A stretch of 64,000 bases of DNA from an uncultured Actinomycetota bacterium (GCA_963820715.1 CAWGAU010000004.1:385773-449772); one strand, 5' to 3'; positions 1 to 15,981 are shown, numbered from the stretch's first letter. Numbers and translations are program-made. The notes: generated by a model not told the origin, from the sequence alone.

Positions 1-1306
<1,306 letters not shown>

Positions 1307-1429
1307 GGCTTGCTGCCTCTCGTTGCGGATGGAAACGCCAGGATCCGGACGGACCGTGCGGCCGCGTGCCGATCGGACCCGGCGTGCCCGGTCCGGCGGA
1401 CCGGGACGCGGGTCGCGGCTGTCGGGCTG

Positions 1430-2280
1430 TCAGGCCTCGTCGGGAAGCGGGGTGCGCCCGGGGGGCTCGGGTGCGGCATCGGGCAGGAAGCGGCCGACGA
1501 AGAGCTTGTACACGACACCGCCGACCAGACCGCCGACCAGCGGGCCGACGATGGGCACCCAGAAGTAGAGGTTGCCCCATTGGTCCCGCCAGGCCGTCTC
1601 GGTAGCCGGTGATGAAGCTGGCCAGCCGGGGGCCGAAGTCACGCGCCGGGTTGATCGCGTACCCGGCGTCCGTGCCGCACGCCATGCCGATCGCGACCAC
1701 GACCAGGCCGATGATGAACGGCCCGAGGTTGGCCCGGGGCGGGTTGTTGAGCATGTCGGTGAGCGCCAGGATCAGGATCAGCAGGATCGCGGTGCCGATG
1801 ACCTGGTCGCGGAAGGCGCCCCACTCGTGCACGCCGGCGGCCACGTTGCCGTTGCCGGGCAGGGTGGAGAAGACGATCTGGGTCTTGATGGTGTGGCCCG
1901 GGGTCGACCCTGGCCAGCACCTCGGTGTAGTTCCAGCGCACCAGCAGGGCCGCCACGAAGGCGCCGGCGGTCTGGGCGACGACGTACGGGGCGACCTTCT
2001 GCCAGGGGAAGCCCTTGAAGGCCGCCAGGGTGACGGTCACGGCCGGGTTGAGGTGGGCGCCGCTGAGCCGGGCGGCCAGGTAGACGCCCAGGGTGACGCC
2101 CAGGCCCCAGGCCCAGGCGATGCTGTCGTGGTTGCCGAGTCCGCCCGGCGGGTTGGTCAGAGCGCCGCCCGCGACCACCTGAGCCACCACGCCGACGCCG
2201 AAGAGGATCAGGATCATCGTCCCGGCGAATTCCGCTGACAGTTCGCCGATGAGTCCCGAGCCGCGTGCGCTTTTCGCCAT
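1430..2280 (-). CDS. glpF: glycerol uptake facilitator (MIP/aquaporin family), two frameshifts (~1640, ~1845)
   Basis: Three minus-strand frames carry consecutive GlpF segments. N-terminal: MAKSARGSGLIGELSAEFAGTMILILFGVG...SGAHLNPAVT. Middle: ...GYAINPARDFGPRL. C-terminal: ...NLYFWVPIVGPLVGG. It sits immediately upstream of glpK, the classic arrangement. Confidence 0.85.
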
Positions 2281-2853
2281 GGAATGCCTACTTCCTGCCG
2301 GTCGTACGACGGCCGCGTCGGAGCCCGGTGACCGTCGTGGTCCTTCACTGGAGGTGATTCTTCCTCCACACACGGAAGCACGCCTCGCGGAAAGTGGCGC
2401 CCGACGATGCGCCGTTCGGACGAAACCGGGCTTGCGGAGCGCCGGCCGGCCCGCGGGCCGCGGCGAACCGGTTCAGGCGGCCCGGCAGAGCCCGGACCGC
2501 ATCGGGCAAACGGGGCGGACCGGGCGGCATCGGGCAGGCCGGGCGGGCGCCGGCGCACGACGGTCGCGCACCGTGTCCCGGGTCTCCTCGGCCACCGGAT
2601 CGGCGTCGACCGCCGCTCCGGCCCGGCCGCGGACGGCCCGCGGCTCGCCTGGCGGGACGCCCTCGCGGCGCGGGCGGACGTGCCGCCGTCGGCGGGCGGC
2701 GCGGCACCCGGCGCCGACCGGCGGGACCGAACGCCGGGTGCCGGGCGGCGCCGCGCCTTGCCGCCCGCCGCCACGACCGGGTCCTCGCTGTCTCGTCGTC
2801 CATGACCTGTACCTCCCTCGCACCGGGAGACGACGACGGCCAGGTGCCGCCGC

Positions 2854-2890
2854 TTGACAAAGCGTTGTTGCCGAAACGGCAAATGGAACC
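2854..2890 (+). promoter_or_regulatory. candidate promoter (TTGACA at 2854-2859) with palindrome TTGCCGAAACGGCAA (2868-2882) abutting the start codon; possible leaderless transcript of the XRE regulator
   Basis: TTGACA -35-like hexamer lies 31 nt before the ATG at 2891. No Shine-Dalgarno sequence is present. A 6-bp-arm inverted repeat with a 3-nt spacer lies between them. Confidence 0.4.
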
Positions 2891-3489
2891 ATGGCCGAAC
2901 TCCACGAAGTCCTGACCGCCGTGGGCCCGCGGCTGCGCTCGCTGCGCCACGCCCGCGACACCACGCTCGCCCAGCTCGCCGAGGAGACCGGCATCTCGCT
3001 GAGCACCCTGTCGCGTCTGGAGTCGGGGCAGCGCAAACCGACCCTGGAGCTGCTGCTGCCGCTGGCGAAGGCGTACGGCGTCCCGCTCGACGAACTGGTC
3101 GGCGCCCCGGCCACCGGCGACCCCCGCATCCACCCGCGGCCCTTCACCCGGCACGGCCAGACGTTCATCCCGCTCACCCGCTACCTCGGCGGGCTGCACG
3201 CGTACAAGCAGATCCTCCCCGCGGTCCCGGACCGCCGACGAGCCCCGGCGAGCGCCCCGCCCAGCGCACGCACGAGGGGTACGAGTGGCTGTACGTGCTC
3301 TCCGGACGGCTACGGCTGGCGCTCGGCGACCGCGACCTCGTCCTGGGGGCCGGCGAGGCGGCCGAGTTCGACACGCGCACGCCGCACGGCTTCGCGAACG
3401 CGGGCGACCGCCCGGTGGAGTTCCTCGCCCTGTTCGGGCCGCAGGGGGAGCGCGTCCACCTGCGGGCCCGCGCGGGGCCCACCGGCTGA
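2891..3489 (+). CDS. XRE-family HTH transcriptional regulator with C-terminal cupin domain; one frameshift ~3235
   Basis: HTH_3: LRSLRHARDTTLAQLAEETGISLSTLSRLESGQRKPTLELLLPLAKAYGVPLDELV. The cupin continues in a second frame: YEWLYVLSGRLRLALGDRDLVLGAGEAAEFDTRTPHGFANAGDRPVEFLALFG. Confidence 0.8.
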
Positions 3490-3499
3490 CGGGAGTCCG

Positions 3500-5189
3500 T
3501 CAGTCCCCGGTGGCCGTCGGTCCGTTGGCCGGCGGCGGCCCCAGCGCCCCGTTCGTCAGGCCCTCGCGGGCCAGTGCGGCGGTCCGCGCCGCGAGGTCGG
3601 CCACCTCGCGCGACCCGCGTCCTCCAGCTCGCTGGAGCGCGCGGAACGCGCCGCCGTAGCGCCGCTGTTCGCCGAGGTCCATCTGCGGGACGCGCGCCCC
3701 GCGCGCGTCCAGCCGGAGGACGCCGCTGCCGGTCGCCGACCGCCGCTGTTCGACCGGACCGAGCAGGAAGCCGCGCAGGAAGTCGGTGTCGAGCCGGTCG
3801 CTGGTCGACACCAGGGCGCCGTCGGCGAACTCCACCAGGCCCGCCCGCGCCAGATCCGCCACGCCCACCGACGCGCTGTCCAGCGTGCCGGGCCCCGCGC
3901 CCGCGGCCAGGACCGGCAGCAGCGGTCCGCAGGGCGGTCAGGCGTCGACTCCAACTCGGCCCGCAGCGCTTCGTATTCGGCCGCGTAGTCCCGGTCGGCG
4001 CCGGTGAGACGTGGGTGGCCGGGGTCAGGTCGACCGTGTCGTCCAGCAGGTCGATCAGCGGCACCTCGGCCACCTGCGACGGGTCCGGATCGAGCGCGCC
4101 GTCGGGGGAGTTGCCCGTCAGGTCGACCATCCGCACGCACCGCGCGCCCTCGCGCACCGGCCGCAGCAGGAACCACAGATGGACCGGCAGCACGTGGCTG
4201 CCCGCCACCCCCGGCGGCAGCGCCACGACCTGGGTCAGGATGCCGCGCCTGACCAGCTCGGCCCGTATCCGGCGTCCCGCCTTGCGGTACGCCACGGACG
4301 CGGGCAGCACCAGCACCGCACGGCCGCCGGGCGCGGTGTGCGCGTACGCGTGCTGGAGCCAGGCGAGTTCGCTCTCGGCCCGCGAGGGGACGCCCAGCTC
4401 CCAGCGGGTGTCCAGGAGCAGGTCCTCCCGGCCCCAGTCAGGCACGGCCACCGGCGGGTCGCAGACGACCAGATCGGCTCTGAGCTGCGGCCAGCCGTCC
4501 TCGCGCAGGGCGTCGCCGCTGCGGATGTCGGCCCCGGCGCGGCCGGTCAGCCCGGCCCGCAGCCGGGCGAACTCCGCCATCGCCGGGTCGATCTCCTGCC
4601 CGTGCCTGACCGGCCCCGACGCCGGGCCGACCGACAGCAGCAGGGTGCCGATCCCGCAGGCCGGGTCGAGGACGGCCGCGTCCTTCGGCACGTCACCGGT
4701 GAAGTGCCGCACCGCCTCCACGATCCGCGCGGAGGTGATCTGGTCCGAGCCCGAGCGGCGGGAGGCCTCCGCGAAGCGCTCGGTCAGGCGGTCGATCAGC
4801 TCGGCGGCGGAGCCGGTGGCCGCGACCTCGGCCGTCCGCCGGGCGAGGTCCGCGCCCAGCCCCGGCGGCGGCCGCCCGTCGGTGAGCTGCCGCGCGACGG
4901 CCGCCAGCCCGCGCACGAGGTCGTCGCCGTACACCCCGCGCAGCAGTTGCCACAGCTCGGTCTCGCCGGAGGTCTCCCGGCCCTTGTGCTCGCGGGCGAG
5001 CCAGTCGCGCACCTCGGCGAGCCGGAAGAGCGGGCTGCTCGGACCGCCGCCGGCCGGTGCGGGGAAGTCGTCGTGGCGGCGCCGCCAGTTGGAGACGGCG
5101 GCTCGCGTCACCCCGGCCATCCGGGCGATCTCGGCGCCTGTGACCAGCGGATCAGCGGCTGAGCGGGCCTGGGCACTCATGGTCGTCAC
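3500..5189 (-). CDS. N6-adenine DNA methyltransferase with N-terminal MerR/excisionase-type HTH; two frameshifts (~3900, ~3990)
   Basis: N-terminal HTH: MTTMSAQARSAADPLVTGAEIARMAGVTRAAVSNWRRRHDDFPAP. SAM motif I: VLDPACGIGTLLL. Motif IV-like: LVVCDPPVAVPDW. The C-terminal ~230 aa is recovered from two other frames (...RLTGADRDYAAEYEALRAELE... then ...PLLPVLAAGAGPGTLDSASVGVADLARAGLVEFADGALVSTSDRLDTDFLRGFLLGPVEQRR...). No restriction endonuclease gene is adjacent. Confidence 0.75.
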
Positions 5190-5353
5190 CGTACACGGCC
5201 GGGCCGTGTCCCTCCAGGGTCGTGTGTGTTGGCGGCGTACACAGACGGGGAATTAGGGGTGTCGATTGTGTACGAGCTGTCCGGTTACGGACACGGGGTC
5301 CCCCACCGTCGGAAGACGGGAAAGAGCGCCCTCCGGTTCGGCCCGCGCCGAAT

Positions 5354-5369
5354 CGGAGAGCGCTCTCCG
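5354..5369. promoter_or_regulatory. perfect 16-bp palindrome CGGAGAGCGCTCTCCG (copy 1)
   Basis: It lies 46 bp downstream of the GH3 stop and 165 bp upstream of the methyltransferase start. An identical copy is at 9095-9110. Confidence 0.5.
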
Positions 5370-5405
5370 GTCATTCCGTTCCCTGCCGGCGGTGCGGCGG
5401 CAGGA

Positions 5406-8400
5406 TCAGTTCCAGCCGGTCAGCCCCGCTCCGTAGGGGTACAGCGGGTTGCCGTACGTGGTCGGCACCGTCTGGCCGGCGTCGATCTTCGCCCGGATGT
5501 CCGCCCGCTCGGCGGCGGTGGCGCCCAGGTCGTACGGCAGGTCCCAGTCCTCGTTCGCGTCGGCCAGGGTGTCGCCGCCGCCCGGCTTGAGGACCTGGTC
5601 CAGGCTGCGCGGCAGCTGCCAGGGCAGCTTGCCGCGCGGGGTGTAGTCGCCGAAGAGCAGGCTGGCGGTGGCCGGGCCCGACCTCCTCGCCGCCGCGGTA
5701 GGTCACCACGATGGCGTCGGCGAGGTTGTTCCAGTCGCTGATCACGATCGGGCGGGGCAGCGTCAGCACGCACCACCACCGGGATCCCCTGGTTCTTGAA
5801 GTTCTGGATGATGGCGAGCTGGTCGGCCGGCAGGTACGGCTGGGTGTCCGGCCAGGCGGTGGCGTGGGTGTACGACGGCTCGCCGACCGCGACGATCGCC
5901 AGCTTCGGCGATCGGGCCGGTGTCCTGGTAGACGTTGACCCCGGCGGTCGCGGCTCTCGCCTTGATCGCGTCGAGCATGTCCAGCGAACCGTAGTCCGGG
6001 TGGAAGTAGCTGGACCAGATGCAGCACGACGCGCCGTCGGTGGCCCGCGGGCCCGGCGACCACGATGTTGTCGCCCGCGTTCAGCTTGCACCGGCAGCAC
6101 GCCGTCGTTCTTCAGCAGCGTGTGCGACTCGCGCGCCGCCTGGTTGGCCAGCTGCGACGTAGCTCGGGCTGGTGGAACCGGTACGGGCCGTTGACCGGGT
6201 CGCCGTACGGGTGGTCGAAGACGCCCAGTTCGAACTTCAGCTTCAGGATCCGGGTCACCGCGTCGTTGATCCGGGCCAGCGGCACCTGCTGCTCGAAGCT
6301 CGCCATGGTGAAGCCGGTCGCGCCCGGGTCGGCGCCGCCCATCACGTCCGAGCCGGCGTTCGCCGCGTTGATCCACGGCGACCGGACGGCAGCCAGTCGG
6401 TGGTGATCAGACCGGTGTAGCCCAGGTTCTGCCGCAGGTAGGTGAGGATCTTCGCGCTGTCGCCCGCGCCGGGACCGCCCGGGTCCAGGTACGAGCTGCC
6501 CGCGTAGCCCGGCATGATGTTGACCGCGCCGGCCTCCATCGCCGCCTGGAACGGGATCATGTGGTACTTGATGGTGACCCCGTCGTAGACGATCCCGGCC
6601 TCGCCGCCGGCGCCCTCGCCCGGCCAGTGCTTGACGGTGGCCAGCACCGAGCCCGGGTTCAGCTCCGGACCGCCCTGCAGCCCGGCGACCAGCGCCCGCA
6701 GCTGGGCCGCCGCCACGTCGGCGTTCTCGCCGCCGCCCTCCTGGATGCGCGGGTAGAGCACCTTGGTGCCGACCTCGGCGAGCGGCGACGAGCGTGCCGC
6801 GCGCGCCGACCTCGAGCTCCTCCTTGCGCTGCATGTTGCCGAGCTGGTAGTCCAGCGGGTAGTCCTTGCCCGCCGCCAGCGTGCTCTGCAGCGGGTAGGT
6901 GGTCTGGTAGCCGGCCGTGGTGTCGCCGGCGGAGACCGGCGGGATGCCGAGCCGGGTGCCGCCGTGGACGAGCAGCACGTTGTTGAGGTCGGCGGGCTGC
7001 GCGGGACCGAAGTGCCAGCCCGGACATCGGGTACGCCTGGACGTTGTAGAACATCTGGTACGCCTTCTCCTCCAGCGTCATCCGGCCGAGCAGGTCGGTG
7101 ACCCGGGTGTCGACCGGCTAGCCGCCAGTCCTCGTACGGCTCGATCGTGCCGTCCTTGTTCAGGTCGCGGGCGCCGTTGATGACGTTGACGCCGTCGTCG
7201 ACCGTGCTCGATGTCCGGCAGGTACACGCTGAACGTGCGGATGTTCGAGGTGGTCCGTCGCCCCGGAGCCGGTCACCGCGACCACGTACCACTTGTACGT
7301 CCACCGGTCGGTGATGTCCCAGCTCGGCGTGTAGCTGGTGCCGGTCGGCTCGGCGACCTTGGTGTACAGGTCGAGCAGGTTGCCCGGAGGCGGTGAAGTC
7401 GTAGTCGGTGCGGCTGATGTTGATCCAGACCTCGTAGTGCGCGGCGCCCGGCGACGGCCGCCCAGGACAGCGCCGGCCGCGGGTGTTGGTGACCATCGCC
7501 TGGTCGGCCGGGCGCGGACAGCGCGAACTGCCCGGTGGTGGCCGGGGCCTTGGTCGGCCCGGACAGCAGCGGCGGGGTGGCGGTGGAGGTGTCGACCGTG
7601 CCGTAGACCTGGAACTCCCACAGCGAGTAGCCGTATCCGGTGGCGCGGGCGGTGCCGGTACAGCCGCACGTAGCGGCCGGTGCCGGTGACCGGCAGCGTC
7701 TCGACGCCGCCCTTGCCGGTGGTGGTGGTGTAGATCGGCGTCCAGGCGGTGCCGTTGTCGGACACGTCGATGTGGTACCCGGTGCCGTACGCGGACTCCC
7801 AGTTCAGCACGATGCCGCTGATCGTGCCGATGCCGCCGAGGTCGACCTGGAGCCACTGCGCGTCGGTGTACAGGCTCGACCAGCGGGTGGTGGTCCGGCC
7901 GTCGAGCGCGGCGGCCGGGGCGTTGCCGCCCTCGTACGAGGACGCGGAGACCTGCTTGAACGCGGAGATGACGGTACCGGAGAAGTCGCCGCCGCTCGCC
8001 GCCGGTGCCGCCGGTGGTGCCGCCGTCGTGCCGCCGGCCGGTGGTGCGCGCCGCCGGTGTGGACCTGCGAACTCCCACAGCGAGTAGCCGTATCCGGTGG
8101 CGCGGGCCGTGCCGTACATCCGCACGTACCGGCCGGTGCCGCTGACGTCGAGCGTCTGGGTGCCGCCGGTGCCGGTGGTGGTGGAGTAGATCGACGGTCC
8201 AGGTCTGCGGCGTCGCCGGAGACCTGGATCTGGAAGGCCGTCGCGTACGCGGACTCCCAGTTGAGGACGACCTGGCAGATCGGACGCCGAGGCGCCGAGG
8301 TCGACCTGGAGCCACTGCGGGTCGGTGGCCGCGCTCGACCAGCGGGTGCCGGCGTTGCCGTCGACCGCGGCCGAGGCCGGGGTGCCGGCGTTCTCGGTGG

Positions 8401-8985
8401 AGGAGGCGGTCGCCGGCCGGTCCTGAGCGCCGCGTTCGTGCGTGCCGCAGCCGGCCGCCGGCGGCGCCGGCCGTGCCGTAGACCTGGAACTCCCACAGGG
8501 AGTAGCCGTAGCCGGTGGCGCGGGCGGTGCCGTACATCCGGACATAGCGCCCGGAACCGTTTACGGTGAGCGTCTGCATGCCGCCGGTGCCGGTGGTGGT
8601 GGAGTAGATCGTCGGTCCAGGTCTGCGCGTCGTCGGAGACCTGGATCTGGAACGCCGTGCGCGTACGCGGTCTCCCAGTTGAGCGACCACCGAGCGTGAC
8701 GGTGGCCGTGGCGCCGAGGTCGACCTGGAGCCACTGCGGGTCGGCGACGGCGCTCGACCAGCGGGTGCCGGTGTCGCCGTCGACCGCGGCCGAGGCGGGC
8801 GTGCCGGCGTTCTCGGTCGACGAGGCGGTGGCCGGCTTGCCCTGGGAGAGCAGGGTGCCGGCGGCGTGCGCGGTGCCGGTCGTGGTGCCGACCAGGCCGC
8901 CGAGGGCGAGGGCCATCGCGGCGGCCGCGGCGACGGCCGGTCTGCGCCGTCTGATGAAGCCGAGGAGCGGAGACAGCAGGCTCAT
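5406..8985 (-). CDS. secreted multidomain glycoside hydrolase: signal peptide + 3x F5/8 type C (discoidin/CBM32) + GH3 catalytic domains; many frameshifts
   Basis: Start: RBS GGAG then ATG giving MSLLSPLLGFIRRRRPAVAAAAAMALALGGLVGTTTGTAHAAG. Three discoidin repeats (ASSTENAGTPASAAVDG.TGTRWSS...DPQWLQVDLGA). GH3 motifs: MTLEEKAYQMFYNVQAYPMSG, KHWPGEGAGG, GLITTDW, WINAANAGSDVMGGADP, KLAIVAVGEPSYTHA. Reconstructed C-terminus: ...LLFGDYTPRGKLPWQLP...GAGLTGWN stop at 5406-5408. Confidence 0.85.
7560..8880. repeat. three tandem ~430-450-bp nucleotide repeats encoding the discoidin domains
   Basis: The block gaactcccacagcgagtagccgtatccggtggcgcgggc recurs at ~7617, ~8068 and ~8490 (third copy gaactcccacagggagtagccgtagccggtggcgcgggcgg). 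Confidence 0.7.
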
Positions 8986-9094
8986 GGGCATCTCCTGGTG
9001 TGATGTCTGGTGCCGTCGCGGCTCGTCGCCCGGCCGGGCGGCCCCGCCGCTGAGGCTGGGGGGTGACTCGGACTCACAGGACCGGAAATCCGGT

Positions 9095-9110
9095 CGGAGA
9101 GCGCTCTCCG
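9095..9110. promoter_or_regulatory. perfect 16-bp palindrome CGGAGAGCGCTCTCCG (copy 2) in the divergent GH3/araB promoter region
   Basis: It is 110 bp upstream of the GH3 start (8985, minus strand) and 267 bp upstream of the araB start. It is flanked by the imperfect palindrome ACCGGAAATCCGGT. Confidence 0.5.
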
Positions 9111-9376
9111 AGGGGAGTCTGTGGGAGGGCCCGAGCACTGTCAACCCTTGCGGCGCGGGCCGCTTACCTGGCCACCTTGCCCGCTTCGGGGCCGCTCACG
9201 GCCTATCGTGCCCAGGTGCGGCGCGGCACGCCGCCCGTAGGGTGAACGCACAGTGACATCAGGGCGACCGCACAGTGCGCGCACAGCGGACCTACAGGCG
9301 CACCGTGCCGCCGCCCCACAGGTGTCCCTACAGGTTCCGTACCGGCCGCGGGCCGGAGATTCGGGAGTACGCCGAC

Positions 9377-11044
9377 GTGACCACCTCACCGCCCGCCGTC
9401 ACCGTGGGTGTCGACTTCGGGACGCTGTCCGGGCGCGCCGTCGTCGTCGCCGTGGCGGACGGCACCGAACTCGGCACCGCCGTCACCGACTACCGGCACG
9501 GCGTGGTGATCACGAACTCCCGGGCGACCGGCCGTGTGCCGCCGGACTGGGCGCTCCAGATCCCCGGCGACTGGCGCGAGGTGCTCACCGACGCGGTGCC
9601 CAGGGCGCTCGCGGCGGCCGGCGTACGGCCCCGGCCAGGTCCTCGGCATCGGCACCGACTTCACGTCCTGCACGGTGCTGCCGACCACCGCGGACGGAGT
9701 GCCGCTGTGCGAGCTGCCGCGAGTTCGCCGGACCGCCCGCACGCGTACCCCAAGCTGTGGCGGCACCACGCCGCGCAGCCCGAGGCCGACCTGATCGTGC
9801 GACCGGGCCGAGGAGTCCGGGCAGACCTGGCTGGCGGCCTACGGGGGCAAGGTCTCCAGCGAGTGGCAGCACCCCAAGGCGCTCCAGGTGCTCCGCGAGG
9901 ACCCGGAGGTCTACGCCGCCGCCGACCGCTGGATCGAGGCCGCCGACTGGATCGTGTGGCAGCTGACCGGCGCGGAGAACCGCACCCTGAGCACCGCCGG
10001 GTACAAGGGCCTGTACCAGCGGGGCAGCCACCCGGACGCCGGCCTTTCTCGGCTCCCTCCACCCGGACTTCGCCGGCTTCACCGCCAAGGTCGACCACCC
10101 GCTGTCCCGGCCCGGCACGCAGGCGGGCGTGCTGACCGCCGCGGGCGGCCGCGGCCACCGGGCTCCCGCAGGGGCTGCCCGTCGCCGTCGGCCACATCGA
10201 CGCGCACGTCACGGCCGCGGCGGCGCAGACCCTCGACCCCGGCCGGCTGCTGGCCATCATGGGCACCTCGACCTGCCTGATCGTCAACTCCGCGACCCAG
10301 GCGGACGTCCCCGGCATGTGCGGCGCCGTCCTCGACGGTGTCGTGCCCGGCCTGTGGGGATACGAGGCCGGGCAGAGCGGGGTCGGCGACATCTTCGCCT
10401 GGGCCGCCCGCACCGCCGTGCCCGAGGAGTACGCGCAGCGGGCCCGCGCCCGCGGCGTCGGCGTGCACGAACTCCTCACCGAGCTGGCCGCGGCCCAACC
10501 GGTGGGCGGGCACGGCCTGCTGGCCCTGGACTGGCACAGCGGCAACCGCTCCGTGCTGGTCGACCACCACCTGTCCGGCCTGCTCGTCGGCCTCACCCTC
10601 GACACCCGGCCCGAGGACATCTACCGCGCCCTGATCGAGGCCACCGCCTTCGGCACCCGCACGATCGTCGCCGCCTACGAGGACGCCGGGGTCGCCGTCA
10701 CCGAGGTCACGGCGGCGGGCGGCCTGCTGAAGAACCGCTTCCTGATGCAGACCTACAGCGACGTGCTGAACCGGCCGATCAACGTCATCGCCTCCGAGCA
10801 GGGGCCCGCCCTCGGCGCCGCCATCCACGCGGCCGTCGCCGCGGGCGCCCACCCGGACCTGCGCACCGCCTCGGCCGCGATGGGCCGCGTCCACCCCGCG
10901 GTGTACACGCCCGACCGGGCCCGGGCCGCCGCCTACGACGAGCTGTACGCCGAATACCAGGTCCTGCACGACCACTTCGGCCGCGGCGCCACCGATGTGA
11001 TGCACCGCCTGCGCGCCCTGCGCCGCCGCTCGACCGCGCGCTGA
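9377..11044 (+). CDS. araB: L-ribulokinase (FGGY family); frameshifted in the middle
   Basis: VTVGVDFGTLSGRAVVVAVADGTELG matches the AraB N-terminus. C-terminal segment: GTSTCLIV...LDWHSGNRSVLVDHHLSGLLVGLTLDTRPEDIYRALIEATAFGTRTIVAAYEDAGV...YSDVLNRPINVIASEQGPALGAAIHAAVAAG matches AraB. Confidence 0.85.
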
Positions 11045-11427
11045 GCCCCGCGCGGGCCGGCCCCCGCCCGCCGCCGGAGCGAGGGCCGGCCCGCGTCCGC
11101 CGCGGCCCTCCTCCGGCGGGTCCGGCCTGCTCATCGGCCCTGCGCTCGCCCCGCCGGTCCGCCCGTTCGCCGCCGTGCGTCCGCGCAACCGCCCCGCGCC
11201 GGCGCCCCGTTGATTGCCTGCTGCACGGGCCTTGTCAAAGCCGCGTCACGGCTCTTACGGTGTGGCCGCGAAAGAAAATGCTCGACTCTGTTTCATTACG
11301 TTGAATTGGCGTGCTGCGGGCCGTCGTCAGCCGGATCGATCGGCACAATTACGCACGCCTCATGGACCGACCTCGTCGCCGGTCCTGTTCTGTTCGGTTC
11401 TCCGACACCGCGAGCAGAGGAACCTCC

Positions 11428-13472
11428 ATGCCAAGATCCGTCCGCAGGCTGCTCGCCTGTGCGACCGCCGGCGCACTGTGGACCGGCGGCCTCGGCGCCG
11501 TCGCCGTGACCACCGAGGTGGCCGTCGCCGCGGCGCCCGCCGCGGCCCTCGACAACGGCCTGGCGCTGACCCCGCCGATGGGCTTCAACGACTGGAACGC
11601 CTTCGGCTGCAACGTCAGCGAGCAGCTCATCGAGCAGACCGCCGACTACCTGGTCAGCTCCGGCCTGAAGGACGCCGGCTACACCTACGTCAACATCGAC
11701 GACTGCTGGATGACGCACACCCGCGACGCCGACGGCAGCCTCGTCCCGGACCCGGTGAAGTTCCCCGACGGGATCAAGGGCACCGCCGACTACGTCCACT
11801 CCAAGGGCCTCAAGCTCGGCATCTACGAGGACGCGGGCACCGAAGACCTGCGCCGGGCTACCCCGGCAGCCTCGGCCACGAGACCACCGACGCGCAGACG
11901 TTCGCGGACTGGGGCGTGGACTACCTCAAGTACGACAACTGCAACAACCAGAGCGACGGCAGCCGCGCGGACTACGTCAACCGCTACACCGCGATGCGCG
12001 ACGCGCTGAAGGCGACCGGCCGCCCGATCGTCTACTCGCTGTGCGAGTGGGGCGCAGCAGAACCCGTGGGAGTGGGCCGGCGACGTCGGCAACTCCTGGC
12101 GCACCACCGGCGACATCAACGACACCTGGTCGAGCATGCTCAACATCGCCAAGCAGAACATGCCGCTGGCGGCGGACGCCGGGCCCGGGCCACTGGAACG
12201 ACCCGGACATGCTGGAGGTCGGCAACGGCGGCATGACCGACACCGAGTACCGCACGCCACTTCTCGCTGTGGTCGATGATGGACTCGCCGCTGCTCATCG
12301 GCACCGACCTGCGCAAGGCCACCCCGGCGACGCTGGCGATCCTCGGCAACAAGGACGTCATCGCCCTCGACCAGGACCCGCTGGGCTCGCAGGCCACCGT
12401 GGTCTCCTCCGACGGCGACGCGTACGTCCTGACCAAGCAGCTGGCCGACGGCGACCGGGCCGTCGCGCTGTTCAACGCGTCGCGACCAGGCCGCAGCGCA
12501 TCTCCACCACCGCCAAGGCCGCGGGCCTTCCGCAGCGCGGCAGCTACGCGGTGCGCGACCTGTGGAGCCACACCGACTACGACAGCGCCGGCACGCTGTC
12601 CGCGACCGTGCCCGCGCACGGCACCGTCCTGCTGCGGGTGAGCGGCAGCGCCGCCTCCGGCGCGGCGCGCCCTGCTCGACCCGCCGCTGCTCGACACCGG
12701 CGTGTCCAACGCGCCCGACCACATCGAGCCCGGCACGAGCGCGACGGTCGACACCTACGCCACCGACCTCGGCGCCCTGCCCGCCACCCGGGTCGGCGTC
12801 TCGCTCAGCGCCCCCGACGGCTGGACGGTCAAGGCCACCGGCGCCACCAGCGGCCTGGTGCTGCCCAAGGGCCACACGCTCACCACGCCCTGGACGGTCA
12901 CCGTCCCGGCCGGCACCAAGCCGGGCACGTACGCCCTGTCCGGCACGGTCGGCTACGACCAGCCGAGCGGGCGGCAGCCAGGTCACGCGTGCCGCTGGCG
13001 GGCAGCGTCACCGTCGAGGTGCCGCCGCCGTCCGGCACGAGCTACCTCAGCGACCTCGACTGGACCACGGCCACCAACGGCTGGGGGCCGGTCGAGAGGG
13101 ACCAGAGCAACGGTGAGACGGGGGCCGGCGACGGCAACCCGATCACCATCGGCGGCACCGTCTTCGCCAAGGGCCTGGGCACCAACGCGCCGAGCACCAT
13201 CACGTACTACCTCGGCGGCGGCTGCTCGACGCTGAGCGCGACCGTCGGCGTGGACGACGAGAAGAACGGCAAGGGCACGGTCGAGTTCGAGGTCGACGCC
13301 GACGGCACGCAGGTCGCCGACAGCGGAGTGCTGAAGAACGCCGACGGGCCCAAGCCGCTGCACGCCGACGTCACCGGCGCGCAGCAGCGTCCAGCTGATC
13401 GTCACCGACGGCGGCGACGGCAACGACAGCGACCACGCGGACTGGGCCGACGCCCAGGTCACCTGCTCCTGA
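11428..13472 (+). CDS. secreted alpha-galactosidase (GH27) with C-terminal carbohydrate-binding and NPCBM domains; multiple frameshifts
   Basis: Signal peptide [28 protein letters not shown]27 motifs: [66 protein letters not shown]: [26 protein letters not shown]...[33 protein letters not shown]. Ends ...VTCS. Confidence 0.85.
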
Positions 13473-13486
13473 CGACCGGTCACATC

Positions 13487-13526
13487 CCGTACGGCGGCGG
13501 CACGTCCACGTGCCGCCGCCGTACGG
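13487..13526. terminator. 19-bp perfect inverted repeat (CCGTACGGCGGCGGCACGT cc ACGTGCCGCCGCCGTACGG), 15 nt after the alpha-galactosidase stop
   Basis: Read directly from the sequence. A GC-rich hairpin without a U-tract is typical of actinomycete intrinsic terminators. Confidence 0.6.
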
Positions 13527-13780
13527 CGTGCTGCCCAGGGCGGCGCCGGCGCCGGTGCGTGCCGGCTCAGCACGGGGCGCCGCGCCGCGGGCCCGCACCG
13601 TACGGGGGTTTCCGGCGGTCGGCCGGGTGATCCGCGCGGGTGTCACGCGGACGGAGTACACGGAGGGGCGCGACCTTCGGCGCCCGCGCCCTCCCGGCAC
13701 CTCCGTACGCCGCTACCCGAGCGGCCGACCGCGCCGTTGACTGGGAGTTCGGCCCCGACCCGGGAGCGCACATGACCAAC

Positions 13781-14613
13781 AGCCGTAAGCCCGAGACCCC
13801 GGCCTGCGACCAGGCAGCAGCCCCCCACGCGTCAGCCCTGCAGTCCCGACCGCCGCCGTCCACCGGTCGTCTTCGACGCGCCGTTCTCCGACCGCTCGGC
13901 CTGGGCGGTGGGCCGCACCTCCGCCTACCCGCCGGACGGCCGCAACCCCGGCGACAACAAGCTCGACCAGATCGGCCCGGCCTCCGCCCCCACCGCCGAC
14001 GGCGTCTTCCGCGCCCGCCGCACCCGGGACGGCCTGTGGCACGCCGACCTGGTGTCCACCGAGTACGCCCCCGGCGGCTTCGAGCTGCTCCCCGGGCGAC
14101 GAGCTGAGCGCGACCTGCCGGGTGGAGGACGTCCGGGGCGCCTGGCCCGCGCTGTGGACCTGGGGGCGCGACACCGACTCGGGCCGCCCGCAGCCCGGGC
14201 ACGGCGAGATCGACGCCTTCGAGTACCACCCGGACAACCCGCGGATGCTGGAGCTGACCAACCACGTCCGCCGCGCCGCCCGCTACGCCGAGGGCGCGGT
14301 CACCCCCGGGCGGCCGTTCGCGCTGCGGGTCGTGCTCGGCGTGGACAGCGTGGTGTGGGAGGTCGACGGCGCGCGGGTCTTCGCCGACGGCCGGGGCGTC
14401 GGCCCGTCCTGGCGCGCCTGGCCGGTGGTCGGCATCAGCGTCTCCGCGGGGGCGTACGGCCATCTGCCGCCGGACGCCGGGGTGCACGAACTGCGCTGGC
14501 AGTGCACGGAGTCTGACGGTCCGCCGCCCGGTCCTCGACCTGCCCCGGCAGCAGGAGCTGACCGCACCAGTGGCCCCGCCGGCCCCAACTCTTCTTTGGT
14601 CCAGACCTATTGA
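13781..14613 (+). CDS. GH16-like (concanavalin-like glycoside hydrolase) protein; frameshifted, ends uncertain
   Basis: EIDAFEY fits the GH16 ExDxxE catalytic motif. Conserved stretches: RTSAYPPDGRNPGDNKLDQIGPASAPTADGVFRARRTRDGLWHADLVSTEYAPGGFEL and GAWPALWTWGRDT...GHGEIDAFEYHPDNP. Confidence 0.5.
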
Positions 14614-14638
14614 CGAGTGGTCGAGACCACTTTACGAT
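14610..14638 (+). promoter_or_regulatory. chitinase promoter: -35 TTGACG (14610-14615), 17-nt spacer, -10 TACGAT (14633-14638); spacer contains a DasR-type dre box AGTGGTCGAGACCACT (14616-14631)
   Basis: The dre consensus is ACTGGTCTAGACCAGT. The core TGGTCGAGACCA matches with one central mismatch. Streptomyces chitinase genes are classic DasR targets. Confidence 0.6.
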
Positions 14639-14754
14639 CCCGACCATCACCGTGCGTGATCCTCCAGCTTCTCCAACTCACCCGGAGCCGGGCTGCCACG
14701 GCCACCCCCATCGGCTCGGTGGCCGCCGTGCCCGCCGCGGGAAGGGAGCACAGC

Positions 14755-15890
14755 ATGATCGGTCGGAGACTACGGGTAGTGGGGGTCGGCCTGACCCTGG
14801 CCGCCCTCGCCCAACTTCCGGTCGCCGCGGCCGTCCACGCCGCGGCCCCCGGCCCACGAGCGGCGGCCGGCCCGGCCCGGCCGCCGCCGCCGTCACCGCG
14901 CGCCGTCCCGCACACGACCGCCGCCGACACCTGCGCGATCAAGCCGCCGCCCCTCGGGCAAGGTGCTCCAGGGCTACTGGGAGAACTGGGACGGCGCCGC
15001 CAACGGCGTGCACCCGCGGCTCGGCTGGATCCCGATCACCGACAGCCGGATCGCCGCAGCACGGCTACAACGTCATCAACGCGGCCTTCCCGGTCATCCA
15101 GTCCGACGGCACCGTGCTGTGGCAGGACGGCATGGACACCGGCGTCAAGGTGGCCACGCCGGCCGAGATGTGCCAGGCCAAGGCGGCCGGCGCGACGATC
15201 CTGATGTCGATCGGCGGCGCGGCGGCCGGCATCGACCTCAGCTCCAGCGACCGTCGCCGACCGCTTCGTGGCGACCATCGTGCCGATCCTGAAGGCGTAC
15301 AACTTCGACGGCATCGACATCGACATCGAGACCGGCCTGATCGGCAGCGGCAGCATCAGCACGCTGTCCACCTCGCAGGCCAACCTGGAGCGCATCATCG
15401 ACGGCGTGCTGGCCCAGATGCCCGCCGAACTTCGGCCTGACCATGGCGCCCGAGACGGCGTACGTCACCGGCGGCAGCATCACCTACGGCTCGATCTGGG
15501 GCGCGTACCTGCCGATCGTCAAGAAGTACGCCGACAACGGCCGGCTGTGGTGGCTGAACATGCAGTACTACAACGGCAGCATGTACGGCTGCTCCGGCGA
15601 CTCGTACGAGGCGGGCACGGTGGCCGGGCTTCACCGCGCAGACCGACTGCCTCAACAAGGGCCTGGTCGTCCAGGGCACCACGATCAAGGTGCCGTACGA
15701 CAAGCAGGTGCCCGGCCTGCCGGCCCAGTCCGGGCGCGGGCGGCGGCTACATGACGCCGACCCTGGTCTCCCAGGCGTGGAACGCACTACGGCAGCGGCG
15801 CTCAAGGGCCTGATGACCTGGTCGCTCAACTGGGACGGCTCGAAGGGCTGGACCTTCGGCGACAACGTGAAGTCGCTGCAGGGCCGCTGA
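14755..15890 (+). CDS. secreted GH18 chitinase; frameshifted
   Basis: Signal peptide MIGRRLRVVGVGLTLAALAQLPVAAAVHA after RBS GGGAAGGGAG. GH18 motifs: GYWENWDG, NVINAAF, ILMSIGG, FDGIDIDIE (DxxDxDxE), WWLNMQYYN, LMTWSLNWD. Confidence 0.85.
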
Positions 15891-15924
15891 CACGGGGTGC
15901 CGTCCCCGTGCCGCCCGACGGGCG

Positions 15925-15981
15925 CCCGCCGACTGCCCTCGGCGGGCGCCTGCCGTGTTTCCCCGGACCGAACCGGGGAAA
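15925..15981. terminator. two consecutive GC-rich hairpins after the chitinase gene
   Basis: GGCGCCCGCCGactgccctCGGCGGGCGCC and TTTCCCCGGaccgaaCCGGGGAAA. Confidence 0.4.

What the first reader, a model, noticed from the sequence alone, without database searches (positions are those of the whole stretch)
2854..5189. Orphan-like HTH-fused N6-adenine methyltransferase convergent with an XRE-cupin regulator
The ~560-aa methyltransferase carries an N-terminal MerR/excisionase-type HTH. It has a ~130-aa linker of unknown function, a gamma-class catalytic core (motif I LDPACGIGTLL, motif IV CDPPV) and a ~230-aa C-terminal domain with no obvious target-recognition-domain similarity. No endonuclease, helicase or BREX/DISARM partner is within 10 kb. 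An HTH-tethered solitary methyltransferase fits an epigenetic regulator or an atypical defence component rather than classical R-M. The XRE-cupin regulator's stop is 10 bp from the methyltransferase stop.
Basis: partly seen in the sequence, partly recalled or inferred. Interest (0 to 1): 0.55.

Follow-up and report, generated by a model that had tools for sequence, protein, structure and literature searches.

The report
Methylase-like gene stranded without partners
A DNA-methylase-like gene that in most Streptomyces relatives sits in a four-gene cassette with a helicase and a McrBC nuclease stands alone here, and its catalytic motif lacks the aromatic residue such enzymes normally need, so it may not be a standard methylase.

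Summary
A 557-aa HTH-fused N6_Mtase gene (5180->3500, minus strand) ends 10 bp from a convergent XRE-cupin gene (2891-3489). Both carry frameshifts, but every neighbouring gene does too, so this is sequencing noise and not decay.

The gene is not a lone oddity. It belongs to a ~550-aa Streptomycetaceae family. In 23 of 31 other loci that family is convergent with a UvrD-like helicase, McrC and McrB. The window copy lies in a monophyletic sub-clade that lost those partners and sits near kdpD. The XRE-cupin is a widespread regulator with its own conserved partner, so the adjacency looks incidental.

The family derives from an HTH-HsdM-TRD protein that leads two-M (PacII-like) Type I operons. It has lost about 70 aa of the HsdS-type recognition domain. 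Its motif IV is (D/E)PP[V/A/T/S] and is never aromatic, while the SAM-binding motifs are intact. A palindromic operator-like element (GTGTAC-N3-GCCAAC, 5228-5242) and two more GTGTAC boxes travel with the gene in all loci, which suggests HTH autoregulation.

Best reading: an orphaned, autoregulated, SAM-binding HsdM-like protein of doubtful catalytic competence. It is a new variant of a known kind, of moderate interest.

The parts
3500..5180 (-). HTH-HsdM-like methyltransferase-fold gene, 557 aa after correcting five indels near 4009, 3945, 3920, 3631 and 3614. An alternative GTG start lies at 5189.
   Evidence: ORF list. tblastn with P0001. Frameshift-aware alignment, 516 of 557 residues identical to P0001. 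Pfam N6_Mtase E=7e-26.
4980..5147 (-). N-terminal winged helix-turn-helix (residues 12-67), excisionase/AlpA/MerR-like; proposed autoregulatory DNA-binding domain.
   Evidence: HTH_17 E=0.01-0.02, below the Pfam cut-off. PADLOC mad1 and PDC-M06B hits. AF2 secondary structure is strand-helix-helix-strand-strand-helix, pLDDT 73-88. Translation checked. Nearly invariant across the family.
4752..4967 (-). It occupies the position of the HsdM N-terminal helical domain.
   Evidence: AF2 helices 72-84, 88-101, 110-122 and 125-143. Foldseek aligns about 400 columns to HsdM/PacII M chains. The phmmer alignment starts at chain residue 153 of PacII M1. Correspondence is inferred, not shown residue by residue.
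4101..4733 (-). Rossmann-fold SAM-dependent methyltransferase core (residues 150-360).
   Evidence: Pfam N6_Mtase. Best PDB hits are PacII M1 7vru_A at 8e-18 and HsdM chains. pLDDT mostly above 90.
4647..4667 (-). Motif I DPACGIG (SAM binding), conserved family-wide.
   Evidence: Translation. Conservation.
4449..4460 (-). Motif IV DPPV, non-canonical: the aromatic fourth residue is absent.
   Evidence: Translation. Among the 120 closest hits: 113 DPPV, 5 DPPA, 1 DPPI, 1 EPPV. 50%-cluster representatives show DPPA/M/T/S/R, EPPA/V, APPV, HPPA. The canonical form is NPP(Y/F/W), whose aromatic residue stacks on the flipped base (PMC3874165).
3503..4028 (-). C-terminal module (residues ~385-557): helix, a small low-confidence domain, then a long helix. 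It is the remnant of an HsdS-type target-recognition domain plus its conserved helix. All five frameshifts lie in this part.
   Evidence: AF2. The 620-750-aa relatives carry about 71 extra residues at position ~450. Their C-terminal profile hits HsdS chains 5ybb_D and 3okg_A at 2e-7. That profile aligns to this family's C-terminus at 98.8% probability. The direct comparison to HsdS is not significant.
5228..5242 (-). Imperfect palindrome GTGTAC-GCC-GCCAAC (family consensus GT[G/T][T/G]AC-N3-G[T/C]CAAC), ending 47 nt before the ATG; proposed operator.
   Evidence: Present at 45-50 nt from the ATG in all 32 loci examined, amid otherwise unalignable upstream DNA. It is a perfect palindrome in L004 and L039. 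It is the only exact match in the 64-kb window.
5190..5196 (-). Proximal GTGTACG box overlapping a putative -10 hexamer (TACGGT) 7 nt upstream of the ATG. This implies a leaderless transcript.
   Evidence: GTGTAC lies at the same position in nearly all loci. The promoter reading is inferred from the TAnnnT form and the spacing. The sigma-70 consensus scan found nothing.
5268..5274 (+). Distal GTGTACG box, inverted relative to the gene (GTACAC on the gene strand), about 90 nt upstream of the ATG.
   Evidence: Present in the window, L029, L031, the pre-IS segment of L026 and about 10 cassette loci.
2891..3489 (+). XRE-family HTH plus cupin regulator (194 aa in L001), with two indels near 3230 and 3240. 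A convergent neighbour, probably not a functional partner.
   Evidence: Pfam HTH_3 4.5e-16 and Cupin_2 8.5e-18. Frameshift alignment. 76-89% identical orthologues occur in many actinomycete genera. Elsewhere it has a different conserved context and no methyltransferase next to it.
3478..3516 (.). Inverted repeat spanning both stop codons (core CTGACGG-GAGT-CCGTCAG at 3486-3503); possible bidirectional terminator without a T-tract.
   Evidence: Sequence. RNA fold -30.3 kcal/mol, z=-2.06, 5 of 200 shuffles as good. The gap between the two genes is 7 to 76 bp in relatives, so conservation is not shown.

Best explanation
The gene encodes a full-length HTH-HsdM-like, SAM-binding methyltransferase-fold protein. 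The frameshifts in it are sequencing noise.

Origin (shown):
- It belongs to a ~550-aa Streptomycetaceae family.
- That family descends from the HTH-HsdM-TRD fusion protein that is the first gene of two-M (PacII-like) Type I R-M operons.
- The family has lost about 70 aa of the HsdS-type recognition domain and the aromatic residue of catalytic motif IV.
- Its normal setting is a four-gene cassette: the M-like gene convergent with UvrD-like helicase <- McrC <- McrB.
- The window copy sits in a monophyletic sub-clade that lost the helicase and nuclease genes and lies near kdpD, beside an unrelated conserved XRE-cupin regulator.
- This sub-clade is still under purifying selection, though relaxed.

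How it works (inferred):
- The N-terminal winged HTH binds a palindromic operator (5228-5242) and two further GTGTAC boxes in its own, probably leaderless, promoter. It thereby autoregulates, as C-proteins and HTH-fused modification enzymes do.
- The HsdM-like core still binds SAM.
- With (D/E)PP-aliphatic in place of NPP-aromatic and a truncated TRD, it is more likely than not (about 55-60%) a poor or non-canonical methyl-transferase. In the cassette it would then serve as a SAM-binding DNA-recognition or licensing subunit rather than a sequence-specific m6A modification enzyme.
- On its own in this genome it cannot restrict. It most likely persists as an autoregulated DNA-binding, SAM-binding protein with at most weak methylating activity.
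For: Identity and integrity:
- N6_Mtase at E about 1e-26.
- Five frameshifts here against 5-22 in every neighbouring gene.
- Intact 97%, 84%, 83% and 74% homologues exist.

Cassette:
- UvrD + McrC + McrB lie next to the gene in 23 of 31 loci. McrCB alone is present in 2, no partners in 2, and XRE-cupin in 4.
- The same four genes occur in a different arrangement in L028 and across Streptomyces, Kitasatospora, Actinacidiphila and Amycolatopsis.
- Distance matrices of the four genes correlate at r=0.88-0.97, with 0 of 2000 Mantel permutations reaching the observed value.
- The partners keep Walker A/B, the NxxD signature, the PD..DxK nuclease motif and the DEAQ helicase motif.
- Complete cassettes were also recovered when anchoring on McrB in metagenomes: L047 and L049.

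Derived loss:
- The solo clade is monophyletic and nested, sister to cassette-bearing Kitasatospora/Actinacidiphila sequences.
- Its flanks (kdpD and sugar-utilisation genes) are absent from cassette loci.
- dN/dS is 0.36-0.49 in the solo clade against 0.21-0.27 in the sister clade. The catalytic core is the best conserved part.
- Other independent orphans exist: L013, L022 and plasmid L039.

Ancestry:
- The best structural matches are PacII M1/M2 and HsdM chains.
- The 677-737-aa relatives are the first gene of HTH-M / HsdM / HsdS / HsdR operons.
- Their C-terminus matches HsdS chains at 2e-7 and aligns to this family's C-terminus at 98.8% probability.
- The family lacks about 71 residues at position ~450.

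Catalysis:
- Motif IV is never aromatic in the family, whereas relatives have NPPF/NPPY/DPPF.
- The aromatic residue stacks on the flipped base (PMC3874165).
- Motif I, the motif II acidic residue and motif III GD are intact.

Autoregulation:
- The operator and boxes sit at fixed positions in all 32 loci regardless of genomic context.
- The operator is unique in the window.
Against: - No activity was measured. D-P-P, the motif VIII tyrosine (Y298, invariant) and all SAM-binding motifs are conserved. The catalytic core has the lowest dN/dS. The protein may therefore still methylate, with valine packing against the base.
- The link between the HTH and the operator rests only on co-conservation. 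The boxes could be promoter elements or sites for a host factor.
- Linkage to UvrD/McrBC is not obligatory in either direction. Several M-like genes lack McrBC, and one close McrBC locus (L046) lacks both the M-like gene and UvrD within 5-8 kb.
- Correlated distances could simply reflect shared vertical descent.
- Only 3.5 kb is visible on one side of the gene in the window. Absence of partners beyond that relies on synteny with L001, L029 and L031.
- Partners or an HsdS could be encoded elsewhere in the genome.
- The AF2 model is poor for residues 428-500, and TRD ancestry is transitive only.
Confidence: 0.58

Rival explanations
1. It is an active solitary N6-adenine DNA methyltransferase that works as an epigenetic regulator. 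The HTH or the residual TRD directs methylation to a short motif, possibly GTGTAC-like, and the methylation changes gene expression.
For: - SAM-binding motifs, D-P-P and the motif VIII tyrosine are conserved.
- The gene is under purifying selection after losing its partners, with core dN/dS of 0.24-0.35.
- It is intact in four lineages that diverged to 74% identity.
- Orphan methyltransferases that outlive their restriction partners are common (general knowledge).
Against: - Motif IV lacks the aromatic residue in every family member, and the position varies freely among V, A, T, S, M and R.
- All well-studied amino-methyltransferases I can recall have Y, F, W or H there. The one non-aromatic case I recall, METTL14 (EPPL), is inactive (memory).
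- The TRD is truncated by about 70 aa, and no HsdS is nearby.
- In one of the five solo loci an IS110 separates the gene from its promoter, which suggests dispensability.
Confidence: 0.25
2. It is still a working component of a defence system whose other parts are encoded elsewhere in the genome. Those parts could be a UvrD-McrBC module, or a Type I HsdM/HsdS/HsdR set onto which its C-terminal helices dock.
For: - The family is normally cassette-linked.
- Relatives act inside multi-subunit Type I operons.
- Several genomes carry both the 550-aa and the 700-aa paralogues (organism names).
- The long C-terminal helix is retained.
Against: - There is no partner in the 64-kb window or in 20-kb syntenic contigs.
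- dN/dS is relaxed most in the C-terminal and linker regions that would mediate such contacts, at 0.44-0.88.
- In cassette loci the partners are always immediately adjacent.
Confidence: 0.1
3. The gene is a decaying pseudogene. On this reading the five frameshifts are real and the ORF is a relic of a lost cassette.
For: - There are five frame disruptions, all in the last 500 nt.
- Selection in the clade is relaxed.
- L026 is disrupted by an IS element.
Against: - Frameshifts are as dense or denser in every neighbouring housekeeping gene, including the kdp-linked permease, glpF and glpK.
- The 97%-identical homologue is intact.
- dN/dS is well below 1.
Confidence: 0.04
4. The methyltransferase-like protein and the XRE-cupin regulator form a functional two-gene unit, for example a controller-plus-methylase pair or mutual regulation by convergent transcription.
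For: - The pair is kept in all five solo-clade loci even where the far flank differs, as in L026.
- The stops lie 10 bp apart inside a hairpin.
Against: - The XRE-cupin is far more widespread than the solo clade, at 76-89% identity across many genera.
- In S. coffeae, which keeps its M-like gene in a cassette elsewhere (L006), the regulator sits beside a FAD/Pyr_redox gene and a 79-aa gene.
- That same FAD-methyltransferase gene is its divergent neighbour in L026.
- The gap between the two genes varies from 7 to 76 bp.
- The methyltransferase carries its own conserved promoter and operator.
Confidence: 0.03

Closest known systems
HsdM, the modification subunit of Type I restriction-modification systems (EcoKI, EcoR124I; Pfam N6_Mtase PF02384)
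   Same: - Gamma-class fold and motif order.
- SAM-binding motifs I-III.
- A helical N-terminal region and a C-terminal helix.
- Best sequence and fold matches in the PDB.
   Different: - It fails the NCBIfam hsdM equivalog, scoring 24.5 against a cut-off of 242.75 bits.
- No HsdM_N Pfam hit.
- It has an extra N-terminal HTH.
- A TRD remnant is fused in cis.
- Motif IV is DPPV, not NPPF.
- No hsdS or hsdR nearby.
Two-methyltransferase ('non-canonical') Type I systems such as PacII M1M2S (PMC9613975, PMC5100572)
   Same: - PacII M1 is the top PDB hit by sequence and by fold.
- The 677-737-aa actinomycete relatives sit in operons with a second HsdM, an HsdS and an HsdR. That is the same two-M layout.
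   Different: - The actinomycete first gene also carries an HTH and its own HsdS-type TRD.
- The family in the window has left that operon and lost most of the TRD and the motif IV aromatic residue.
- It is instead paired with UvrD and McrBC, or, as here, with nothing.
McrBC systems associated with predicted DNA methyltransferases (noted but not described in Bell et al. 2024, eLife, PMC11090510), and LlaJI/BsuMI-type R-M systems whose restriction subunits are McrB/McrC homologues (from memory)
   Same: - The family's usual cassette couples an M-like gene with an NxxD-type McrB GTPase and a PD-DxK McrC.
- The McrB's best PADLOC hits are 'REase_II' models.
- Bell et al. call this association prevalent and surprising.
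   Different: - The cassette adds a UvrD-like helicase with an unassigned 250-aa N-terminal domain.
- Its M-like protein has a degenerate catalytic motif.
- No paper in the searched library describes this cassette.
- The window copy has none of the partners.
Modification enzymes and controller (C) proteins that autoregulate through an HTH and a palindromic operator, such as M.SsoII, M.EcoRII and the C-boxes (from memory)
   Same: - An N-terminal HTH is fused to a methyltransferase fold.
- A palindromic element lies at a fixed position in the gene's own promoter and travels with the gene.
   Different: - Binding is not shown.
- The HTH is of the excisionase/AlpA type rather than XRE type.
- There are three boxes, one of which overlaps the putative -10 of a leaderless promoter.
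Catalytically inactive methyltransferase paralogues such as METTL14 (motif EPPL; from memory)
   Same: The aromatic residue of motif IV is lost, and in some family members Asp is replaced by Glu, Ala or His, in a protein that works alongside partners.
   Different: - This family keeps all its SAM-binding motifs, whereas METTL14 does not bind SAM.
- The resemblance is an analogy, not homology at family level.
- Inactivity here is unproven.
MADS mad2 / mad1 (PADLOC models)
   Same: The core hits mad2 at 80 bits and the HTH hits mad1 weakly.
   Different: - The matches cover only the generic methyltransferase core and the HTH.
- No other mad genes are present.
- The best PADLOC model is MTase_I PDLC03037 at 266 bits.

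Membership tests
Gamma-class amino (N6-adenine) DNA methyltransferases | Rossmann SAM-binding fold with motif I (FxGxG-type) N-terminal to motif IV, and the recognition domain C-terminal | tested here: met
   N6_Mtase at E about 1e-26. DPACGIG at residues 172-178 precedes DPPV at 241-244. The TRD remnant is C-terminal.
Gamma-class amino (N6-adenine) DNA methyltransferases | Motif IV (N/D)PP followed by an aromatic residue (Y/F/W) that stacks on the flipped base | tested here: not met
   DPPV in the window. No aromatic residue at this position in the 120 closest hits or in the family's 50%-cluster representatives. Definition taken from PMC3874165.
Gamma-class amino (N6-adenine) DNA methyltransferases | Demonstrated methyl transfer to adenine N6 at a defined motif | not testable with these tools
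   Needs a methylome or an enzyme assay.
Type I R-M HsdM (NCBIfam TIGR00497 equivalog) | Score above the curated equivalog cut-off, and an HsdM_N domain | tested here: not met
   24.5 bits against a cut-off of 242.75. No PF12161 hit even at E<=1.
Type I R-M HsdM (NCBIfam TIGR00497 equivalog) | Adjacent hsdS and hsdR genes | tested here: not met
   None in the window or in syntenic contigs. They are present only next to the 677-737-aa relatives.
HTH-M-like / UvrD / McrC / McrB cassette family of Streptomycetaceae (unnamed) | Sequence membership: ~550 aa, 60-84% identity, shared (D/E)PP-aliphatic motif and truncated TRD, shared promoter boxes | tested here: met
HTH-M-like / UvrD / McrC / McrB cassette family of Streptomycetaceae (unnamed) | Adjacent UvrD-like helicase, McrC and McrB genes | tested here: not met
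   No tblastn hit in the 64-kb window. Also absent from the other solo-clade loci L001, L026, L029 and L031.
BREX PglX / DISARM DrmMI | A protein of roughly 1200 aa (size from memory) matching the PglX or DrmMI profiles, with brx/pgl or drm partner genes | tested here: not met
   The full-length protein is 557 aa. No PglX or DrmMI model appears among the PADLOC hits. No partners are present.
MADS (mad1-mad8) | mad2 methyltransferase together with the other mad genes | tested here: not met
   mad2 matches at 80 bits over the core only, and the MTase_I model scores 266 bits. No mad partners are present.
Excisionase/MerR-type HTH (Pfam HTH_17) | Score above the Pfam gathering threshold | tested here: inconclusive
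   15.5-16.6 bits against a cut-off of 27. The AF2 winged-helix topology and the JGI 'AlpA' labels are consistent with it.
HsdS-type target recognition domain (Pfam Methylase_S) | Detectable homology to HsdS TRDs | tested here: inconclusive
   Direct comparison: no Pfam or PDB hit, and hhalign gives 1% probability. Transitive comparison: this family against the 700-aa relatives gives 98.8%, and those relatives hit HsdS chains at 2e-7. Only about the last third of the TRD and the helix are retained.
Autoregulated HTH-methyltransferases / C-protein control | Palindromic operator in the gene's own promoter | tested here: met
   GT[G/T][T/G]AC-N3-G[T/C]CAAC lies 45-50 nt from the ATG in all 32 loci and is unique in the window.
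Autoregulated HTH-methyltransferases / C-protein control | The HTH binds the operator and changes transcription | not testable with these tools
   Needs EMSA or footprinting and reporter assays.

The most novel reading that the evidence does not exclude
The ~550-aa family are SAM-binding pseudo-methyltransferases. They would be HsdM-derived base-inspecting or licensing subunits that have given up methyl transfer and sequence-specific recognition, and that steer a UvrD-helicase/McrBC-nuclease machine. That would be a restriction logic distinct from both classical R-M and Type IV systems. In the solo clade represented in the window, the protein would have been exapted as a SAM-responsive, autoregulated HTH transcription factor.
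Probability: 0.15. Interest if true: 0.75.

Novelty: new variant of a known kind. Interest (0 to 1): 0.5.

Why it matters
For the window itself the result is sobering. The 'orphan epigenetic methylase' is a stranded member of a defence-cassette family. Its XRE-cupin neighbour is incidental, and its frameshifts are noise.

At family level three things are worth a specialist's attention.
1. There is a very common, uncharacterised Streptomycetaceae cassette that joins an HsdM-derived protein to a UvrD-like helicase and McrBC. It is a concrete and abundant example of the McrBC-methyltransferase association that a recent census called surprising and left for later.
2. The M-like protein keeps SAM binding but never has the aromatic residue of motif IV, and its recognition domain is truncated. 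This makes the question 'modification enzyme or SAM-binding sensor?' directly testable.
3. A conserved palindromic operator travels with the gene, which gives a simple handle on its regulation.

Streptomyces are hard to transform and are major phage hosts, so knowing what this widespread cassette restricts has practical value for strain engineering.

Tried and rejected
- PglX/BREX or DISARM fragment: rejected. The length matches the family norm and there are no matching PADLOC models.
- Pseudogene: rejected. Frameshifts are window-wide.
- Mobile-element insertion upstream of the gene: rejected. The 3.9 kb absent from L001 encodes a GH3/discoidin glycosidase fragment also seen in L026, not an IS element.
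- Direct annotation of the C-terminal domain: Pfam and a PDB profile search gave only noise. It succeeded only through the longer relatives.
- Restriction-like asymmetry (M-like gene without McrBC, but never the reverse), tested by anchoring on McrB in metagenomes: inconclusive. Few contigs were long enough. Two had the complete cassette, two were variants, and L046 had McrBC without the M-like gene or UvrD.
- GTGTAC boxes upstream of the McrB operon, which would indicate co-regulation: only conserved coding-sequence matches inside mcrB were found.
- Sigma-70 consensus scan of the promoter region: no hit.
- Literature on the cassette, on Streptomyces m6A methylomes and on SCO3261/3262: nothing specific to this family.
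- AFDB fold search: the library was not available.
- Phage records hold no full-length homologue. Plasmid records hold two full-length homologues on large Streptomyces replicons; the one examined is solitary.

Full report
**1. What is in the sequence**

The window is about 72-77% G+C in this region.

On the minus strand an ORF starts at 5189 (GTG) or 5180 (ATG) and reads MSAQARSAADPLVTGAEIARMAGVTRAAVSNWRRRHDDFP.... Pfam finds N6_Mtase (E=7e-26) and a sub-threshold HTH_17. NCBIfam gives only a far-sub-threshold hsdM match.

- The raw ORF (3174-5189, 671 aa) turns into low-complexity nonsense after about 390 codons.
- tblastn with the 97%-identical intact homologue P0001 (558 aa) shows that the true reading continues in other frames.
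- A frameshift-aware alignment needs five corrections, near 4009, 3945, 3920, 3631 and 3614. It then yields 557 aa ending at the stop at 3500-3502.
- The XRE-cupin gene (2891-3489, plus strand) likewise needs two corrections.
- Its stop at 3487-3489 is 10 bp from the methyltransferase stop. The two stops lie within an inverted repeat.

**2. The frameshifts are noise**

I aligned the proteins of the syntenic contig L001 (92.7-96.1% DNA identity over the three aligned stretches) to the window. Every neighbouring gene has many frameshifts:

| Gene | Frameshifts |
|---|---|
| amino-acid permease | 22 |
| melibiase | 17 |
| GH18 | 8 |
| FGGY_C | 8 |
| GlpK | 8 |
| MIP | 5 |

. The methyltransferase, with five, is not specially degraded. 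I therefore treat the gene as intact.

**3. The gene belongs to a large family with a conserved cassette**

More than 2,400 homologues were found. The best 120 are ~550-aa 'N-6 DNA methylases' of Streptomyces, Kitasatospora and Actinacidiphila at 64-97% identity.

Context was examined in 31 distinct loci outside the window. They came from a scan of one genome per species and from contig look-ups.

| Context | Loci |
|---|---|
| UvrD-like helicase + McrC + McrB present | 23 |
| McrC + McrB kept, UvrD lost | 2 |
| None of the partners | 2 |
| Convergent XRE-cupin instead | 4 (5 counting the window) |

.

- In the common arrangement the gene is followed, convergently and within about 10-25 bp, by the ~711-aa UvrD-like helicase, then McrC (PF10117, 1e-48), then a DUF4357/AAA_5 McrB.
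- In Actinacidiphila the same four genes occur in another arrangement, with UvrD divergent upstream.
- The cassette is found as far away as Amycolatopsis.
- The partners look functional. McrB has GPPGTGKT, DEINRAN and an NxxD signature. McrC has PD...DAKYK. The helicase has GGPGTGKT and DEAQ.
- Pairwise distances of the four genes correlate at r=0.88-0.97, with 0 of 2000 Mantel permutations reaching the observed value. This fits co-inheritance as a unit, but shared vertical descent would produce the same pattern.
- The flanks vary: Wadjet-like genes, DUF6119, or a sigma-70-like protein plus a DrmA/YprA-like helicase.
- A census anchored on McrB in metagenomes recovered complete cassettes (L047, L049) and a UvrD-less one (L052). 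It also found a variant with a 700-aa-type M-like gene (L045) and one McrBC with neither UvrD nor the M-like gene (L046).
- PADLOC has no model for the cassette as such.
- A recent McrBC census notes a prevalent and 'surprising' association of McrBC with predicted methyltransferases and defers it to a later paper (PMC11090510). I found no paper that describes this cassette.

**4. The window copy is a derived orphan**

- In a neighbour-joining tree the five XRE-cupin-linked sequences (window, L001, L029, L031, L026) form one clade. It is nested in the family and sister to cassette-bearing Kitasatospora/Actinacidiphila sequences.
- Their shared surroundings are kdpD, glycosidases and glpF/glpK. 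These are absent from all cassette loci.
- The 64-kb window contains no homologue of the partners and otherwise encodes housekeeping functions.
- dN/dS within the solo clade is 0.36-0.49, against 0.21-0.27 in the sister clade. The catalytic core is best preserved (0.24-0.35, one pair 0.49). The linker and C-terminus are the most relaxed.
- The gene is therefore still under selection, but less tightly than when it sits in the cassette.
- Orphaning has happened repeatedly: L013, L022 and a Streptomyces fungicidicus megaplasmid.
- In L026 an IS110 element sits between the gene and its promoter.

**5. The XRE-cupin neighbour**

- Its orthologues are 76-89% identical across many actinomycete genera and far outnumber the solo clade.
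- In S. coffeae the M-like gene lies in a cassette elsewhere (L006). There, and in another Streptomyces, the regulator lies between a FAD/Pyr_redox gene and a 79-aa gene, with no methyltransferase.
- The same FAD-methyltransferase gene is its divergent neighbour in L026.
- The simplest reading is that the M-like gene came to lie downstream of a conserved regulator gene. The spacing between them ranges from 7 to 76 bp among relatives.

**6. Anatomy and ancestry**

The AlphaFold2 model has mean pLDDT 78.5.

| Residues | Feature |
|---|---|
| 12-67 | winged HTH |
| 72-143 | helical domain |
| ~150-360 | Rossmann core |
| 398-419 | helix |
| 439-497 | small, poorly predicted domain |
| 501-540 | long helix |

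- The best solved relatives, by sequence and by fold, are PacII M1/M2 and HsdM subunits.
- An all-against-library search found 419 cluster representatives at E<=1e-30. Most are 620-750-aa proteins with the same HTH and core.
- Two of these were looked up. Each is the first gene of an operon HTH-M-like / HsdM (with HsdM_N) / HsdS / HsdR. That is the two-methyltransferase Type I layout known from PacII (PMC9613975, PMC5100572).
- Relative to them, the family in the window lacks about 24 residues near position 105, about 25 near 365 and about 71 near 450.
- A profile of the longer proteins' C-termini hits HsdS chains (5ybb_D and 3okg_A at 2e-7, PacII S at 0.04). It aligns with this family's C-terminus at 98.8% probability over the last 92 columns.
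- The direct comparison of this family's C-terminus with HsdS is not significant.
- So the C-terminal domain is a remnant of an HsdS-type recognition domain plus its helix, with the central part deleted.

**7. The catalytic motif**

- In gamma-class enzymes motif IV is NPP followed by Y, F or W. The aromatic ring stacks on the flipped base (PMC3874165).
- In this family the fourth residue is V in 114 of the 120 closest hits (113 DPPV, 1 EPPV), A in 5 and I in 1.
- In the more divergent members the motif is DPPA/M/T/S/R, EPPA/V, APPV or HPPA. L029 has EPPV.
- The longer Type I-operon relatives mostly keep F or Y, as in NPPF, NPPY and DPPF. Many also vary the first residue, as in HPPF and APPF.
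- By contrast, motif I, the motif II acidic residue, motif III GD, the two prolines and the motif VIII tyrosine are conserved.
- From memory: mutating the aromatic residue to small residues strongly reduces catalysis in M.TaqI and EcoKI, and the inactive METTL14 has EPPL.
- I conclude that SAM binding is retained but canonical adenine methylation is doubtful. I put the chance of a robust, sequence-specific m6A activity at roughly 30-40%.

**8. A conserved operator**

Upstream sequences do not align between loci, apart from three elements.

- The first is an imperfect palindrome GT[G/T][T/G]AC-N3-G[T/C]CAAC that ends 45-47 nt before the ATG in all 32 loci (50 nt in the pre-IS segment of L026). 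Several positions are invariant.
- It is a perfect inverted repeat in L004 and on the S. fungicidicus plasmid.
- The second is a GTGTAC box at about -16. It overlaps a TAnnnT hexamer 6-8 nt from the ATG, which suggests a leaderless transcript.
- The third, present in many loci, is an inverted GTACAC at about -90.
- In the window these lie at 5228-5242, 5190-5196 and 5268-5274.
- The palindrome is the only exact match in 64 kb.
- The elements accompany the gene through every genomic context. The most economical regulator is therefore the protein's own HTH, as in C-protein or M.SsoII-type control (memory). This is an inference; no binding was tested.

**9. Mechanism**

Shown:
- family membership;
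- the usual cassette and its loss in this clade;
- Type I ancestry;
- TRD truncation;
- the motif IV change;
- conserved promoter elements;
- purifying but relaxed selection.

Inferred:
- The HTH autoregulates.
- The core binds SAM.
- In the cassette the protein acts as a recognition or licensing subunit, or a weak modification subunit, for a UvrD/McrBC translocase-nuclease.
- In the window it persists alone, without any restriction capacity.

Rivals are an active orphan epigenetic methylase (0.25), a component whose partners lie elsewhere in the genome (0.10), a pseudogene (0.04) and a functional pair with the XRE-cupin (0.03).

**10. Verdict**

- The feature is a new variant of a known kind: an HsdM-derived, HTH-fused, S-less M-like protein with a degenerate motif IV.
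- In this window it occurs as an orphan.
- Interest is moderate (0.5). It is low for the orphan copy itself and higher for the family-level questions it opens.

Noticed in passing
window 1-20000 (whole window likely): The window is riddled with single-base indels relative to the 92.7-96.1%-identical contig L001. Every gene checked has 2-22 frameshifts, so ORF-based annotation of this window is unreliable without a reference protein.
   Followed up: yes
window 5409-9250 (minus strand): About 3.9 kb present here but absent from L001 encodes fragments of a glycoside hydrolase with F5/F8 type C (discoidin) repeats. It resembles the GH3-discoidin gene upstream of the methyltransferase in L026. A ~90-bp segment of L001 (9710-9800) matches the window a second time at 9145-9235.
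   Followed up: partly
L026 8428-10000: In Streptomyces sp. CP108109 an IS110-family transposase gene (8541-9761) sits between the complete conserved promoter/operator (8428-8527, followed by ATGAGT) and the methyltransferase start at 10001. The gene is therefore cut off from its native promoter.
   Followed up: partly
window 3478-3516: An extended hairpin covers both convergent stop codons (-30.3 kcal/mol, z=-2.06, 5 of 200 shuffles as stable) and has no T-tract. Its conservation in relatives was not established.
   Followed up: partly
L003, L005, L006, L011, L015, L016, L023, L024 (about 17000-21650); L002 1206-9761: Cassettes are often followed by a 520-580-aa sigma-70-like protein (regions 2-4; PADLOC MzaA hit, 143 bits) and a ~980-aa DrmA/YprA-like helicase (642 bits to DrmA). 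This may be the DISARM-like/ARMADA array described next to McrBC operons (PMC12458937). In S. ambofaciens a DUF2397/DUF2398/1434-aa/DUF2399 (Wadjet-like) operon lies directly upstream. DUF6119 is a frequent upstream neighbour.
   Followed up: partly
L035 10001-18664; L036 10001-18785; proteins P0132-P0270: Actinomycete Type I operons have an extra first gene encoding HTH + HsdM-like core + its own HsdS-type TRD, ahead of a normal HsdM, HsdS and HsdR. Many of these proteins replace the catalytic N/D of motif IV with H, A, T, V or R (HPPF, APPF...), which suggests that some are also non-catalytic.
   Followed up: partly
L008 11694-13832 and orthologues: The cassette's UvrD-like helicase has a strongly conserved ~250-aa N-terminal region (e.g. 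DKGLHLE, FWRgVVLAPDDG) with no Pfam or PADLOC match.
   Followed up: no
L045 and L046 (metagenome contigs): L045 has the order McrB, McrC, then a 700-aa-type M-like gene and a distant UvrD-like gene on the opposite strand. L046 has close McrB/McrC (67% and 72%) with neither UvrD nor the M-like gene within 5 kb downstream or 8 kb upstream.
   Followed up: no
window 31294/31321 and 35292/35351: GTGTACG occurs 15 times in the window against 5.4 expected (0 of 100 shuffles reach 15). Besides the four at the methyltransferase gene there are two close pairs elsewhere. They lack the full palindrome and are unexplained.
   Followed up: partly
window 31023-33020 and 29172-30290 (minus strand): A single ORF carries both a DyP-type peroxidase and an encapsulin (Linocin_M18) domain. 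Another joins sigma-70 region 4 to an O6-methylguanine methyltransferase. Given the indel noise, these may be artefactual fusions of adjacent genes.
   Followed up: no
L039 (S. fungicidicus plasmid p1, record 37779-39437): A further solitary family member lies on a 927-kb plasmid, next to a DUF5682/AAA/VWA gene set. It has a perfect GTTGACG-T-CGTCAAC palindrome in its promoter.
   Followed up: partly
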